Assembly: GCF_009914755.1 (NCBI RefSeq) | Contig: NC_060938.1 | Length of the DNA: 64,000 bases | Strand: one strand, 5' to 3' | DNA from: the human T2T-CHM13v2.0 reference genome, Homo sapiens | Shown: positions 56,808 through 64,000 of the stretch, piece after piece | How positions within the stretch are numbered: position 1 is the stretch's first letter | Layout: each line of letters begins with the position of its first letter | Notes under the pieces: generated by a model | Seen by the model: only the letters and a program-made list of their open reading frames with translations | Told to the model about the DNA's origin: nothing | Databases searched by the model: none | Program-made: the position numbers and the translations under genes

Positions 56808-58556
56808 TCATTTCAAAATTATTTGAGTAGCTGGATTTTTCTTTCTTGGGCCACAGACATAAGAACTGGGCCCTCAGGTTTGGAAGAGCACCAACCGCAC
56901 GGCAGGTGATCAGAACATGTGTCCTGACCCCTGCCCACAGGCATGGTGGTCCAGGCCTCAGCCACAGGCCACGAGGTGTTTTGGGGCCACCGCAGCAGTG
57001 GGCCGAGGCCTTTGCTTGTGGATGGACAGGGGGCTGTGCTGGGCCTCCAGAACCCACCATGCTCCCTGGAAACAAAGGAGGCCACGTGCAGGGTCTGACC
57101 TTTAGCTCCCCATAGGGAAAGGATGTGTCAGCAGAGTGTGAGCAGTGGAACCAACCTGAGCTGGCCACTGTTGGCCTTGGGAGTCCAGGCCTTGGGTCTC
57201 ACCCTGCTGGTCCCAAGGCCTAGGTGGGGCAGGAAGGTGTCAGAGTTGTCCAGGACACCCCGACGGTTTGCCTGATTTTGCAAGGACAGAGGCTCAACTG
57301 AGAAGCAGGCACCCATCAACCCTCCCTCAGTAGTGTCTTTCCTGTCTCTGCTGGGCCTTGTTGACTGTGATCAATGACTTCCACTTCCCCGTTGGGGAAA
57401 CTGAGGCACAGAGAAGTCATGCAGTGCCCTAGCAGCAGGGCTGAAATTCACTGGGGCTGTGGGCCCCGCCAGGAAGCCACTGGCCGCCCCACCATGCACT
57501 CCTGGCAGCCCGGCTCTCAGCGAAGTGGGAGATGGGGTGGGCTTGGCCGGAGCTAGGGAAGGGTCGCTGCAGCCCCGGCCCCACCCAGACAAGCCTCCAC
57601 TTCCTGAGCTGGCCGCCAGGACAGGCTGGGCTCCCAAAATCCTTCCTAAAAAGGAATCAGGCTGTGGTGGCCCACACTATTTTTAGATAATTGTGTTGAA
57701 AAATCCCAAGGCACATGTAGCATCATGCATTTTTTTATTCAGGAAGAAAAAAGAAAGGGACCTCCCCACTCTTCTCCCCACAGCCACCGCCTGCCCGAAA
57801 CAGGTCATGCCCCTGGAGTGGCCTCGCACCGTCCATCCCCGGAGGGGCAGTAGCCTGGGCCCTGCAGCTGCCCAGCCCTGGGGGTTAGGGCCTTGGGGTT
57901 TCTGGCTAGAAACAGGGCTCACCTCGGTCTCCTCCTAAGCCTGGAGCTCTCAGGTGGTGCAAGGCACACGGGGATCCCCCACATTGCAGGTGGGGAGACT
58001 GAGGCCAGGCTGTACTCATCTCCATTACGAGGCCTTTTTTTTTAAAAAAAAAACAAACAAAAAAACAAAAAACAGCCTTATGAAGATGTGATTGGCACGT
58101 AGTAAAGCGCAAGCATTTAAAATATACAGTTCAATATGTCTTGACATTTGTATCTATCCATGAAGCCATCGCCACTATTAAGAGAGGGATCATATCCATC
58201 ACCCTCAAAATGTCTTTATCATCTTTGAAACCCCTCCCTCTGGCCCCCCCTCCACCCCCAAGTCTCCTTGCCCCAGGCGCAATCACGGGTCTGCTTTCCC
58301 TCACTCTAGATTAGTCCACATTTTCTAGAGTTTTCTATAAATGGAATCACACAGCACGTTCTTTTTTGACTGGCTCCTTCAACTCGTCACCACTACCTGG
58401 AGATTCACCCATGTTGCTGCAGGCACCAAGCCCCTCATATGGACAGATCACAATTCGCTTCTCCTTTGATCTGTTGGTGGACATTTGGATTGTGATCAGT
58501 TTTTGGCTATTACAAATAAAGCTGCTATAAACATTTGCGGAGAAGTCTTTGTATTT

Positions 58557-59146
58557 GAGGGGACTGCAGGGAGGCCGGGCTGAGTCAGCGCCACTGCCGC
58601 TGCTGCGTGTCCCTTTCTGAGGCCTCGGACCGCACCGCTTTCGCCCTGCGGCCCGGCTCGGTAGCCTGATCAGTCGCGTTCCCGGCTGCGTCTCCGGTCA
58701 CCGAACGGGACGGCGGGATGGCGGGGTCGATCTGTGCAGACGCTGCTAGTGGTTCCGCAGTCGTCGCTGGGTCAGCTGTTTCGAGCGGCGGATCTGCTCC
58801 TATAGATGTCCAGATTGTTAGACGGTGGGCTTCATCCGTCCTACCTCGCCCAACCCAGTTGACTAATATTTGGGTCGGTGGAGCCCGAATAATACAATAA
58901 GAATAAAACCCAACGACAAAGGCCCTCTCTAACCCGAGTACACCGGCCTCTGGCTTTGTGACAAGCACGTCACTGTTAGGCTAAGCAGAGACTTTGGAAC
59001 CCCGGTTCTAAAGCTCTCAGAGTGGAAGAGTACCAGGACATGGGGGTGGGGGTTGGGGCAAAGCTTTGCTCCCTTAGAATAATACCAACGTACAGAGTTG
59101 CGATTGGTTAAAAAATAAAAAAAAATAAAAAAAATAAAAAAAAAAA
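58557..59146 (+). mobile_element. Young L1-mediated retroposed insertion of unknown origin (orphan retrocopy)
   Basis: Perfect 16-bp TSD agaagtctttgtattt (58541-58556, 59147-59162), A-rich tail 59110-59146, about 40 CpGs in ~550 bp by hand count. Confidence 0.9.
58718..58900 (+). CDS. Putative 60-aa microprotein ORF inside the orphan retrocopy
   Basis: First ATG of the insert, strong Kozak context gggATGG, in-frame upstream TGA at 58667, same strand as the tail. No homolog recognised. Confidence 0.35.
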   Translation: MAGSICADAASGSAVVAGSAVSSGGSAPIDVQIVRRWASSVLPRPTQLTNIWVGGARIIQ

Positions 59147-59489
59147 AGAAGTCTTTGTATTTTATATTTGTACATATATTTCCTTTTCTCTGGGGTACAT
59201 ACTAAGAGAGGAATTCCTGGATAATTCTATGTCTAACTTTTTAAGAAACTGCCAAACTGTTTTCCAAAGTGGCTGTACCATTTTACATTCCCTCCAACAA
59301 CGTATGAGGGTTCCAATTTCCCCACGTCCTCACAAACATTTGTTATTGTCTGTCTTTTTGATTATAGACATCCTAGTGGGTGTAAGGTGGTATCTCTTGG
59401 AGTTTTGACTTGCATTTCCCTAGTGAGTAATGATGTTGAACATTTCTTCATGTGCTTGTTGGCCTAGACCTTACTTTAAAAAAAAATAA

Positions 59490-60480
59490 ACTATTAAGTT
59501 TGGGATAATTTTAGATTCACTGAAAAGTTTCAGAGATAACACAGGGAATTCCCATTTACCCTTCACTCAATTTCCCCTAATATAACCTTTATGTTACCTG
59601 GCACATTTGTGCCAACAATGGAACTGACATTGATAAATTACTAGTAACCAAACTCCAGACTTTATTTAGATGTCAGCAGCTTATAATACGAATGTGCCTG
59701 ATATGGTTTGGCTGTGTCCCCACCCAAATCTCGTCTTGAATTGTAGTTCCCATAATCCCCACATGTCATGGGAGGGACCCGGTGCAAGGTAATTGAATCA
59801 TGGGGGTGGCTACCCTCATGCTGTTCTCATGATAGTGAGTTCTCATGAGATCTGATGGTTTTATAAGGGTTTTTCCCCCTCCTTTTGCACGGCATTTCTC
59901 CTTCCTGCTGCCATGTGAAGAAGGACATGTTTGCCTCCCCTTCCTCCATGATTGTAAGTTTCCCGAGGCCTCTCCAGCCATGCTGAACTGTGAGTCAATT
60001 AAACTCGTTTTCTTTATAAATTACCTAGTCTCGGGTATGTCTTTATTAGCTGCATGAGGACGTACTAATACGGTGCCTTTCATCCAGGACCCCATACCAC
60101 CTAATATTTAGCTATGTCTTCATGGGCTTCTCTGGTTTTCGTCAGTTTCTTAGACTTTTCTTTTTCATGCTCTTGGTAGTTTTGAGGGGTATTGGTCAGG
60201 TATTTTGTAGAAAGTTCATCGGTTTGGGTTTGTCTGATGTTTTCTCATGATTACACTGGAGTTATGGGTTTGGGGGAAGAAGACCACAGAGATGAGGTGC
60301 CCTGCTCACCCCATCATATCTGGGGGTACCTGGTATTCACACGACTCATCACTGGGAATGCTGACCTTCATTGACTGGTGAAGGTGATGTCCTGCCAGGT
60401 TTCTCTGTGGTAATGTTACTATTTTTCCTATTTCCACATCCTTCTCTCTGAATGCAAGTCACCAAGTCCAGCCCACACTC
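59490..60480. mobile_element. L1MC-type fragment interrupted by THE1 LTR
   Basis: aattttagattcactgaaaagtt...; ggtcaggtattttgtagaa...gtttgtctgatgtttttctcatgatta. Confidence 0.65.
59699..60072. mobile_element. THE1C/D solo LTR (MaLR)
   Basis: tgatatggtttggctgtgtccccacccaaatctc...actaatac; 5-bp TSD gtgcc (59694-59698, 60073-60077). Confidence 0.93.
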
Positions 60481-60707
60481 CAGTGATGAAGCTCCCCAAG
60501 CTTCACTTGACTCTGAGGATCTTCTACGCCAGGCACTTCACATTGATGTTTCACTTAACCCCACCCCTGTTACTGTCCCTCTGGTAGAAGTCCTAATAAT
60601 CTCTAAACTTAGCAAATTCGCAGTTACAAAGGCTCAGGGATCACTTAGTCAAAACCTTCTTTACCATTTTTACAGACAAGGAAACTGAGATCCAGAGGGA
60701 GATGTGA

Positions 60708-61010
<303 letters not shown>

Positions 61011-61620
61011 AGATGTGACTCACTTTATGATCACATCACAAGCTAAAGGAAAATGGCGAGCCAGGTGTGGCGGCTCACGCCTGTAATCCCAGCACTTTGG
61101 GAGGCTGAGGCGGGTGGATCACTTGGAAGGATGTCTTGATCCAGAGTAAAGGCTCCATAGGCATTTATTGGTTGACAAGGTTGGCATATGTTGTATGAAT
61201 AAGAGCTTCCGTATGTGATAAGGTTTCTCTCTGTGGATGACATAGCCATGGGGTCGCCTGCTGCCTCCCGGTTACCCATACAAACCATGGAAACAGGAAT
61301 GGGTGACAGCCCCACGCTCCCCTGCTGTGAGCCTCCAATCCCCTGGCTGGCTAAACAGCAGCACCAGCTCCTCCTTCTGTCCAGCCGGACAGAGAGCCTG
61401 GAGGAAGCTGGAGTCTGGGTTTCAGTGGCTACAGACAACCCTCCAAATGGTCAGTTAAGAACCAGGGCCACATTGTGAGTGGACACTTTCACACTCTGCA
61501 GGTGACCACGCAAAGTGGTAGAGCAACTTATTTTATTTTTGTCATTCTTTTGAGGCAGGGTCTTGCTGTGTCTCCCAGGCTGGGGTGCAGTGGCATAATC
61601 ACTGCAGCCTTGACCTCCCA

Positions 61621-62385
61621 CTTTGTTACCTGTTTCCGACGGTGTGACCCGAGTGCGCTTCGTTACCCGTTTCTGATGGCATGACCCGACTGCACTTTGT
61701 TACCTGTTTTGATGGTTGTTTCTGATGGCATGACCCAACTGTGCCTCGTTACCCGTTTCCGATGGTGTGACCTGACTGTGCTTTGTTACCTGTTTCTGAT
61801 GTTTGTTTCTGATGGTGTGACCCGACTGTGTTTTGTTACCTGTTTCCGATGGTGTGACCTGACTGCGCTTTGTTACCTGTTTCTGATGGTTGTTTCTGAT
61901 GGTGTGACCCGACTGTGTTTTGTTACCTGTTTCTGATGGTTGTTTCTGGTGGTGTGACCCAACTGCACTTTGTTACCTGTTTCTGATGGTGTGACATGAC
62001 TGCGCTTCGTTACCCATTTCCGATGGTGTGACCTGACTACGCTTTGTTACCTGTTTCTGGTGGTGTGACCCAACTGTGATTTGTTACCTGTTTCTGATGT
62101 TTGTTTCTGATGGTGTGACCTGACTGCTTTGTTACCTGTTTCCAATGGCGTGACCTGACTGAGCTTTGTTACCTGTTTCTGATGGTGTGACCTGACTGCT
62201 TTGTTACCTGTTTCCAATGGTGTGACCTGACTGCGCTTTGTTACCTGTTTCCGATGGTGTGACCTGACTGCTTTGTTACCTGTTTCCAATGGCATGACCT
62301 GACTGCGCTTTGTTACCTGTTTCTGATGGCGTGACCTGACTGCGCTTTGTTACCTCTTTCCGATAGCGGGATCTGACTGCATTTT
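61621..62385. repeat. Minisatellite (VNTR), ~37-bp unit tttgttacctgtttc(c/t)gatggtgtgacctgactgcgc with shorter and longer variants
   Basis: About 19 visible copies. Confidence 0.96.
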
Positions 62386-62689
62386 GCATTCATGGGGGCA
62401 CCGTCTGGCAAGGTGAGCTTGTCAGGGAGAGGCCGTAGCCCTCACCACCGCTAATGACTGGCTACCACACAGAGGTTCCAGGCAGAGTCTAGCTACTGGA
62501 GCCAACCAGCGTGGCTTCGGCCAGTTAACAGACCACTTCTTGGAGTCATGAGGATTAACTCAGTGAGCCCATGGAAAATGCACAAACTAAGCCCTCAATA
62601 AATATAGCCTGATGAACTGCCATTCTGCCTATCCGAATTCTACCCTAAGATAGATAATCAGAGATGCTAGGAGAAAACATGAGCATGTG

Positions 62690-62910
62690 AGTGGCTAAGA
62701 GTATGGATTCTGGAGTCAGGCAACCTGGGTTCAAGGCCTGCTGTAGTATTACCCAAACTTGGGCAAGTTTGTTCATCTTCTGAAGAGAGCTTCATTTCTC
62801 ACCTGGACCTGTATCCGTAATAACTGTATGCATATCATAGCACTGTCATGAGGATTAGATGAGTTAATACATGTCGAATGATTGGTGCATAATAAATGCT
62901 CAATAATTGT
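62690..62910 (+). mobile_element. MIR
   Basis: ggattctggagtcaggcaacctgggttcaa...gaggattagatgagttaatac. Confidence 0.75.
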
Positions 62911-63135
62911 GAGCTGGCATTACCCATTCCATTGTATGTGGCATGACAATGTGAAACCACTTAAATCATTGACAATAAAGAAAGGGTTAAACAGTCTGCA
63001 GTGCATCCATGTGAGGGGAGGTTATGCTGTCTCTAAGTTATCTAGAAAGATTTTTACTGACAAGAGAATATTAAGTGAAAAGATCCATACGGTGTTATAG
63101 ATAGTATGATTTCACTTCATTAAATATCTATACTT

Positions 63136-64000
<865 letters not shown>

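What the first reader, a model, noticed from the sequence alone, without database searches (positions are those of the whole stretch)
58541..59162. Orphan, very young, CpG-rich retroposed RNA with perfect TSD: unknown parent or new mobile RNA family
Seen: a ~590-bp segment interrupts an old L1M. It is bracketed by an identical 16-bp duplication (agaagtctttgtattt), ends in a 37-nt A-rich tail, and keeps about 40 CpGs in ~550 bp while the flanks are CpG-depleted. Established: a TSD plus poly(A) is the signature of L1 ORF2p target-primed reverse transcription, and methylated CpGs and A tails decay over time. Inference: the insertion is recent and possibly polymorphic. I cannot match the body to Alu, L1, SVA, HERV-K, 7SL/7SK, snRNA, rRNA, snaR or any mRNA I know. 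Candidates are a retrocopy of an unannotated CpG-island transcript, a new non-autonomous L1-dependent element, or a captured exogenous (viral) RNA.
Basis: partly seen in the sequence, partly recalled or inferred. Interest (0 to 1): 0.92.

Follow-up and report, generated by a model that had tools for sequence, protein, structure and literature searches.

The report
Known human-specific retrocopy of PCMT1-promoter RNA
This is an ordinary, already published L1-made copy of a short non-coding RNA that starts beside the PCMT1 gene on chromosome 6, dropped recently into the tail end of the TTC7B gene; it is not an orphan, a new mobile family or a viral capture.

Summary
There is an exact 16-bp duplication at 58541-58556 and 59147-59162, a 553-bp body with 41 CpGs (o/e 0.87 against 0.24 for the window), and a 37-nt A-rich tail.

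The "orphan" reading does not hold. A whole-genome search finds 2 of 2 places: the insert itself and one contiguous locus on chr6 at 150948827-150949378, minus strand. The aligned stretch is 556/560 identical, with 4 differences in the 552-bp body. The parent's 5' end lies 117 bp upstream of the PCMT1 start codon and points the other way.

The copy carries one untemplated G at its 5' end, a cap signature. It keeps all 40 parental CpGs. The host repeat is an old L1 on the minus strand.

Mori et al. 2016 (PMC5010893) list this element as "Novel-r": chr14:90991749-90992338 in GRCh37, 590 bp, non-coding. They describe it as a human-specific retrocopy of an unannotated transcript made head-to-head from the PCMT1 5' region, sitting in the TTC7B 3' UTR.

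Verdict: already known, low interest. Not tested here: the empty site in apes, polymorphism in humans, and expression of the parent RNA.

The parts
58541..58556 (.). 5' copy of the 16-bp target-site duplication
   Evidence: Exact 16-mer found only at 58541 and 59147 in the window.
58557..58557 (+). Untemplated G between the TSD and the first parental base (cap signature)
   Evidence: The parent has C at this position and the target has T after the TSD. PMC3287187 attributes untemplated 5' G at L1-mediated insertions to reverse transcription of the m7G cap (passage read).
58558..59109 (+). Retrocopy body: 552 bp collinear, without gaps, with G000:C6:150948827-150949378 (minus strand)
   Evidence: One search gives 99% identity over query 2-553. 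Searches show 4 mismatches, at window 58596, 58689, 58705 and 58775. All 40 parental CpGs are retained.
58718..58900 (+). 60-codon ATG ORF inside the body; no evidence that it is coding
   Evidence: Listed. It matches 0 Pfam families at E<=1 (protein 4). The parent ORF differs by one residue, A/P.
59078..59083 (+). AATAAT, the only AAUAAA-like hexamer near the 3' end; possible weak poly(A) signal (inferred)
   Evidence: Hexamer scan. It ends 26 nt before 59109. A canonical AATAAA at 58902 lies about 200 nt further upstream and was evidently not used for this copy.
59110..59117 (+). AAAAAATA: first 8 nt of the A-rich tail, also encoded in the parent genome, so the cleavage site is ambiguous within or after it
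   Evidence: The alignment extends through these 8 nt. The parent then continues CCACTGTG.
59118..59146 (+). Untemplated poly(A) tail remainder (29 nt, 2 T interruptions)
   Evidence: Absent from the parent locus. Sequence shown.
59147..59162 (.). 3' copy of the 16-bp target-site duplication
59165..59329 (-). Host repeat: old L1, ORF2 C-terminal region, on the minus strand
   Evidence: phmmer against the PDB hits LINE-1 ORF2 protein (8sxt_A residues 1133-1182, E 1.5e-12; 9hdo_A, E 2.4e-13). The 3' flank has 8414 first-look candidates in the genome; the 39 scored hits other than the window's own are 75-82% identical.
58440..58540 (-). Continuation of the same L1 on the other side of the insert
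   Evidence: 2 of 5 other L1 loci (L005, L008) match both flanks collinearly with no insert between them. The minus-strand frame reads MFIAALFVIAKN, which I recall as an L1 ORF2 motif. That recall was not tested by a tool.
57718..64000 (-). TTC7B last exon / 3' UTR (continues to 74741, outside the window); the insert lies inside it, antisense to TTC7B
   Evidence: Hub annotation supplied with the finding (NM_001010854.2). The paper also states that the retrocopy is incorporated in the TTC7B 3' UTR according to Ensembl.

Best explanation
This is an L1-mediated processed retrocopy of a short, unspliced, non-coding RNA polymerase II transcript. It was published as 'Novel-r' by Mori et al. 2016.

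The parent RNA starts in the CpG-island promoter of PCMT1 on chr6. It runs divergently (head-to-head) from PCMT1 for about 552-560 nt and is polyadenylated there. It therefore has the anatomy of an upstream-antisense / promoter-upstream transcript.

A capped, polyadenylated molecule of this RNA was used in trans by L1 ORF2p. The steps were:
1. The endonuclease nicked the bottom strand of an old L1 inside what is now the TTC7B 3' UTR.
2. The poly(A) tail annealed and the RNA was copied to its very 5' end, including one G for the cap.
3. Staggered second-strand cleavage left a 16-bp target-site duplication.

The event is recent, and human-specific according to the paper. That is why the tail, the TSD and all CpGs are still intact.

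Shown here: the anatomy, the single parent locus, its position relative to PCMT1, and the L1 host. Inferred: the Pol II / cap / PROMPT-like nature of the parent RNA, the poly(A) signal, and the age.
For: 1. Hallmarks: exact 16-bp TSD, A-rich tail, 553-bp body.

2. One parent: the whole-genome search gives 2 of 2 places, self and G000:C6:150948827-150949378 minus strand, 99% identical over query 2-553 in one block. The gapless alignment is 556/560 identical.

3. Direction of copying: the chr6 locus has no TSD and no long A tail. It continues upstream into unrelated GC-rich promoter sequence and downstream into unique sequence.

4. Parent context:
- PF01135 (PCMT) exons lie on C6 plus strand at 150970372-151001728.
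- L002:2170-2397 plus strand translates to an open 76-residue exon followed by GT.
- Its last 17 residues are identical to residues 1-17 of PDB 1i1n, protein-L-isoaspartate O-methyltransferase.
- The parent's first base (L002 2052) is 117 bp from that ATG on the opposite strand.

5. Full-length, capped template: there is an untemplated G at 58557, where the parent has C. The cap interpretation comes from PMC3287187.

6. Youth: 4 differences in 552 bp, and 40 of 40 parental CpGs retained.

7. Published identity: Table 1 of PMC5010893 lists Novel-r at chr14:90991749-90992338 (GRCh37), 590 bp (= 553 + 37), non-coding. [quoted passage not shown]

8. Host site: the flank is L1 ORF2, and other L1 copies are continuous across the site (2 of 5 loci).
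Against: - The endonuclease site is a poor match to the L1 consensus. The bottom strand reads 5'-CTTCT/CC, whereas the consensus I recall is 5'-TTTT/AA (sequence).
- There is no canonical AAUAAA or AUUAAA within 40 nt of the 3' end, only AATAAT. 3'-end formation of the parent RNA is therefore not explained by a standard signal.
- Because the parent is unspliced, intron loss, the usual proof of an RNA intermediate, is not available.
- I saw no expression data for the parent RNA. Its existence rests on the copy itself and on the paper's statement.
- I did not compare sequences with the paper's Novel-r. The identification rests on chromosome, host gene, length and parent. The paper's supplementary PDF (dot plots, primers) could not be read.
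Confidence: 0.95

Rival explanations
1. The template was not a discrete ~555-nt promoter-upstream RNA. It was a prematurely polyadenylated or 5'-truncated form of a longer (possibly spliced) lncRNA from the same chr6 promoter, and the extra G is a chance non-templated base at the 5' junction.
For: There is no canonical poly(A) signal at the 3' end, only AATAAT. The parent genome has an A-rich AAAAAATA exactly at the end of homology. Non-templated bases at 5' junctions also occur without a cap (general knowledge).
Against: The 5' end falls 117 bp from the PCMT1 ATG inside the CpG-island promoter, which is the spacing expected for a divergent TSS. The added base is precisely a single G. The paper also calls the parent a transcript from the PCMT1 5' region, head-to-head.
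Confidence: 0.12
2. It is a member of a new non-autonomous L1-dependent retrotransposon family.
For: It has the TSD, A tail and L1-type insertion anatomy.
Against: The whole-genome search finds only 2 of 2 places, the copy and a promoter-embedded source without TSD or tail. There is no internal repeat structure and no Rfam match: 0 hits at E<=1 over 58300-59400.
Confidence: 0.01
3. It is a captured exogenous (viral) RNA reverse-transcribed by L1.
For: CpG content is unusually high for human non-island sequence.
Against: A 99%-identical host locus is physically continuous with PCMT1 exon 1 on chr6. The CpG richness is explained by that CpG island together with the copy's youth.
Confidence: 0.003
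4. It is a DNA-level duplication or transposition from chr6, or an assembly or engineered artefact, rather than an RNA-mediated event.
For: No intron loss can be shown, because the parent block is contiguous.
Against: Homology starts at a promoter-proximal point and ends at an added A tail of about 29 untemplated nt. It is bracketed by a 16-bp TSD and carries a single extra G at the 5' end. The element is present in two independent assemblies, GRCh37 per the paper and CHM13 here. The paper amplified it by PCR from genomic DNA, and it was among the 12 loci with retrocopy-specific primers.
Confidence: 0.01

Closest known systems
'Novel-r', human-specific retrocopy in Mori et al. 2016, Genome Biol Evol 8:2288 (PMC5010893; Results, Discussion and Table 1 read; supplement PDF not readable)
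   Same: Same chromosome. Same length (590 bp = body 553 + tail 37). Same host (TTC7B 3' UTR). Same non-coding status. Same parent (unannotated transcript head-to-head with PCMT1), which I confirmed independently.
   Different: Nothing differs; this is the same element. The paper's Table 1 lists the host as 'Intergenic', while its text places the copy in the Ensembl TTC7B 3' UTR.
Processed pseudogenes / retrocopies of mRNAs made in trans by L1 ORF2p
   Same: TSD, 3' poly(A), homology limited to the transcribed region, a single source gene, and insertion at a nick in A/T-rich old repeat DNA.
   Different: The template is a short, unspliced, non-coding divergent promoter transcript rather than a spliced mRNA, so no introns are lost. 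The endonuclease site is a weak match to the consensus.
Promoter-upstream transcripts (PROMPTs) / upstream antisense RNAs of CpG-island promoters (class of the parent RNA; description from my own knowledge)
   Same: Divergent orientation from a protein-coding CpG-island promoter, a start about 100 bp from the gene's own 5' end, a length of about 0.5 kb, unspliced, and capped and polyadenylated (cap and tail inferred from the copy).
   Different: Exosome sensitivity, nuclear retention and PAS-dependent early termination define the class and were not testable here. No canonical AAUAAA is used at the observed end.
SVA / Alu non-autonomous L1-dependent elements
   Same: Mobilised in trans by L1 with a TSD and A tail. 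Full-length SVA insertions also show untemplated 5' G (PMC3287187).
   Different: Those are multi-copy families. This sequence has one copy and one source.

Membership tests
L1-mediated processed retrocopy | Target-site duplication flanking the insert | tested here: met
   Exact 16 bp at 58541-58556 and 59147-59162, the only two copies in the window.
L1-mediated processed retrocopy | 3' poly(A) tail not encoded at the source locus | tested here: met
   Of the 37-nt tail, 29 nt are absent from chr6. The first 8 nt (AAAAAATA) are templated.
L1-mediated processed retrocopy | A source gene elsewhere, with homology confined to the transcribed region (no promoter copied) | tested here: met
   There is a single chr6 locus. 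Homology starts at L002 2052, and the upstream GC-box promoter sequence is not copied.
L1-mediated processed retrocopy | Loss of the source gene's introns | tested here: inconclusive
   The source block is contiguous, 552 bp in one piece. There is no intron to lose.
L1-mediated processed retrocopy | Insertion at an L1 endonuclease consensus site (5'-TTTT/AA on the nicked strand; consensus recalled) | tested here: inconclusive
   The nicked strand reads 5'-CTTCT/CC. It is pyrimidine-rich before the nick, but C replaces A after it. This is a degenerate match.
'Novel-r' of Mori et al. 2016 | chr14, 590 bp, non-coding, in the TTC7B 3' UTR, parent head-to-head with PCMT1 | tested here: met
   Body 553 + tail 37 = 590 bp. 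The hub annotation places it in the TTC7B last exon. The parent was mapped beside PCMT1 exon 1. Paper read. No direct liftover of the GRCh37 coordinates was possible.
'Novel-r' of Mori et al. 2016 | Human-specific (absent from the orthologous chimpanzee, gorilla and orangutan sites) | not testable with these tools
   No ape genome is held. The claim is the paper's, based on BLAT filtering. My divergence estimate is compatible: 4/552, about 3.6-3.8 My, 95% range about 1-10 My.
Non-autonomous retrotransposon family (SINE/SVA-like) | Multiple dispersed copies with different TSDs | tested here: not met
   2 of 2 places in the 3.1-Gb genome, the copy and the source.
Endogenous viral element / captured exogenous RNA | No cellular source locus; similarity to viral sequence | tested here: not met
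   A cellular source lies at the PCMT1 promoter. Viral collections were not searched because the parent was found.
Known structured ncRNA (Rfam families: 7SL, 7SK, snRNA, snaR, etc.) | Match to an Rfam covariance model | tested here: not met
   0 matches at E<=1 over 58300-59400, both strands.
PROMPT / upstream antisense RNA (class of the parent transcript) | Divergent start within about 100-200 bp of a protein-coding gene's promoter; short; unspliced | tested here: met
   The 5' end is 117 bp from the PCMT1 ATG on the opposite strand. The contiguous block is 552-560 nt.
PROMPT / upstream antisense RNA (class of the parent transcript) | Nuclear-exosome sensitivity and early PAS-dependent termination | not testable with these tools
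   No expression data were available. Only a non-canonical AATAAT lies 26 nt before the end.

The most novel reading that the evidence does not exclude
The insert lies antisense inside the long TTC7B 3' UTR. Human TTC7B mRNA therefore carries about 550 nt that are near-perfectly complementary to the divergent promoter RNA of PCMT1. This could create a human-specific RNA-RNA duplex, or endo-siRNA or decoy cross-talk, between TTC7B and the PCMT1 promoter transcript. More modestly, the copy is a germline 'fossil' showing that a short, normally unstable promoter-upstream RNA can reach the L1 RNP and be retrotransposed at full length.
Probability: 0.04. Interest if true: 0.4.

Novelty: already known. 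Interest (0 to 1): 0.12.

Why it matters
It matters little beyond bookkeeping. The element was published in 2016 as one of 16 human-specific CpG-island-bearing retrocopies. Here it is tied by sequence to a single, unspliced source next to PCMT1 exon 1.

It is a clean textbook example of three things. L1 can copy a non-coding divergent promoter transcript. An untemplated 5' G marks a full-length capped template. Intact CpGs mark youth rather than foreign origin.

It also shows that an 'orphan' status assigned by eye can vanish with one genome-wide search. The element carries no RefSeq row in the hub annotation, so scans that rely on gene tables or on protein-coding parents will keep re-discovering it.

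Tried and rejected
- Rfam scan of 58300-59400 at E<=1 gave 0 matches, so no known structured-RNA family.
- blastn of the body against the rest of the window gave only chance hits with E>=1.2, so there is no local paralogue.
- Pfam on the 60-aa ORF and on plus-strand flank frames gave 0 families, apart from one meaningless Pro-rich_19 hit at E 0.21.
- I first assumed the host L1 was on the plus strand, from recalled antisense-frame peptides. PDB searches with plus-strand frames found no L1: one aminotransferase hit at E 0.42 and 0 hits. The minus-strand frame hit L1 ORF2p, so the orientation was corrected.
- A literature search for a named PCMT1 antisense or divergent lncRNA (PCMT1-DT, PCMT1-AS1, PCMT1-AS, 'PCMT1 antisense') found 1 paper. 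I judged it irrelevant from the listing alone and did not open it.
- A search for papers on lncRNA retrocopies with my chosen phrases found 0 papers, which says little.
- A search for the GRCh37 coordinate 90991749 found only Mori et al..
- The supplementary PDF of PMC5010893 could not be read. It may hold the Novel-r dot plot, TSD, primers and methylation group.
- Viral-collection and large protein-database searches were not run, because the chr6 parent made them unnecessary.

Full report
**Observation.**
- The 16-mer AGAAGTCTTTGTATTT occurs exactly twice in the window, at 58541 and 59147.
- Between the two copies lie a 553-bp body (58557-59109) and a 37-nt A-rich tail (59110-59146, with 3 T).
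- The body has 41 CpGs, CpG o/e 0.87 and GC 0.584.
- The flanks have o/e 0.13-0.43 and the window as a whole 0.24.
- It is the densest CpG cluster in the window.
- Rfam finds nothing at E<=1. Nothing else in the window resembles the body.

**The parent.** A DNA search of the whole 3.1-Gb genome with the body returned 2 of 2 places. One is the insert itself. The other is G000:C6:150948827-150949378 on the minus strand, 99% identical over query positions 2-553 in a single block.
- A gapless alignment with flanks gives 556/560 identities.
- That is 4 mismatches in the 552-bp body, at window 58596, 58689, 58705 and 58775.
- Eight further identical bases (AAAAAATA) form the start of the 'tail'.
- The chr6 locus has no flanking duplication and no long A run. 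Downstream it continues with unique sequence and upstream with GC-rich promoter sequence.

So chr6 is the source and chr14 is the copy. With only one copy, this is not a repeat family. Because the source is host DNA, an exogenous origin is excluded.

**Where the parent sits.**
- Pfam PF01135 (PCMT) exons lie on the plus strand of C6 at 150970372-151001728. The other hits are on C20 and C8; I take these to be the paralogues PCMTD2 and PCMTD1, from recall.
- In locus L002, the plus strand from 2170 to 2397 is an open 76-codon exon starting with ATG and followed by GT.
- Its last 17 residues are identical to residues 1-17 of PDB 1i1n, human protein-L-isoaspartate O-methyltransferase. This is PCMT1 exon 1.
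- The first parental base of the retrocopy is L002 position 2052 on the opposite strand, 117 bp from that ATG.

The template RNA therefore starts in the PCMT1 CpG-island promoter and runs away from PCMT1. It is unspliced over about 552-560 nt. That is the anatomy of an upstream-antisense / promoter-upstream transcript. The class assignment is my inference, and exosome sensitivity was not testable.

**Mechanism.**
- The base at 58557, between the 5' TSD and the first parental base, is a G. It is templated neither by the parent (C) nor by the target (T). [quoted passage not shown] This argues that the copy is full length and marks the parent's transcription start.
- The 16-bp TSD and the untemplated A tail (about 29 nt) are the signature of L1 ORF2p target-primed reverse transcription.
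- Two points fit less well. The nicked strand reads 5'-CTTCT/CC, a weak match to the TTTT/AA consensus (recalled). The only AAUAAA-like hexamer near the end is AATAAT, 26 nt upstream of 59109. A canonical AATAAA at 58902 was read through.

**Host site.**
Window 59165-59329 on the minus strand matches human L1 ORF2p residues 1133-1182 (E 1.5e-12 for 8sxt_A). Plus-strand frames found no L1.
- The 3' flank has 8414 first-look candidates in the genome. Of these, 40 were scored, and the 39 other than the window's own are 75-82% identical. This is consistent with an ancient L1 subfamily.
- In 2 of 5 other L1 loci fetched (L005, L008), both flanks align collinearly with no insert between them. The other 3 match only the right flank.
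- The insert is antisense to both the L1 and TTC7B. According to the hub's RefSeq annotation, the last exon of TTC7B (57718-74741, minus strand) contains it.

**Age.** Four differences in 552 bp give a divergence of 0.72%. That corresponds to about 3.6-3.8 My at phylogenetic rates, with a Poisson 95% range of roughly 1-10 My. All 40 parental CpGs are retained in the copy. The one CpG difference is a TG in the parent. With 41 CpGs, the expected loss over 3 My is only about 1 (using rates I recalled). The intact CpGs therefore need no explanation beyond youth.

**Already in print.** Searching for TTC7B together with 'retrocopy' found 2 papers. One of them, on snoRNA retrocopies, concerns dog Ttc7b and is irrelevant. 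The other is Mori et al. 2016 (PMC5010893).
- Their Table 1 lists 'Novel-r' at chr14:90991749-90992338 (GRCh37): 590 bp, non-coding, parent 'Novel'.
- 590 bp equals my body plus tail.
- They report it as human-specific, by BLAT against chimpanzee, gorilla and orangutan.
- Their Discussion names two other retrocopies, not this one, as polymorphic.
- The GRCh37 coordinate appears in no other paper of the library.
- I could not read their supplementary PDF. I also could not learn from the text which methylation group Novel-r belongs to.

**Verdict.**
The retrocopy-of-an-unannotated-CpG-island-transcript option is right. 'Orphan', 'new mobile family' and 'exogenous RNA' are wrong.
- The element is already known, and its interest is low.
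- Details found here that I did not see in the sections of the paper I read:
  - the unspliced 552-bp source
  - its 117-bp distance from the PCMT1 ATG
  - the cap-G
  - the 4 differences
  - the minus-strand L1 host
- Left open: ape empty sites, human polymorphism, direct evidence for the parent RNA, and any effect on TTC7B or PCMT1.

Noticed in passing
window 59110-59146: The A tail carries T at quasi-regular spacing (A6 T A9 T A8 T A11). The first A6TA is templated by the parent genome. The other two T may be post-insertion changes or tail heterogeneity.
   Followed up: partly
window 58470-58556 and 59148-59405, plus strand: The strand antisense to the L1 ORF2 remnant stays open in one frame across the reconstructed empty site. 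The two TSD copies are 606 bp apart, a multiple of 3, and the same frame runs on both sides. This open antisense frame first misled me about the L1's orientation.
   Followed up: yes
L002 (G000:C6:150947327-150950878), position 1921; window 58689: The single CpG difference between copy and parent is a TG in the chr6 parent, while the chr14 copy keeps CG. The promoter-side source, not the retrocopy, seems to have changed, or CHM13 carries a variant allele there. No outgroup was available to polarise it.
   Followed up: no
window 57400-58000: A GC-rich stretch (GC 0.59-0.67 in 200-bp windows) around the annotated TTC7B 3' end at 57718. It does not pass the CpG-island criteria used. Its nature was not examined.
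   Followed up: no
window 58902-58907: A canonical AATAAA lies inside the retrocopy body about 200 nt before its actual 3' end. The parent RNA that was copied read through it.
   Followed up: partly
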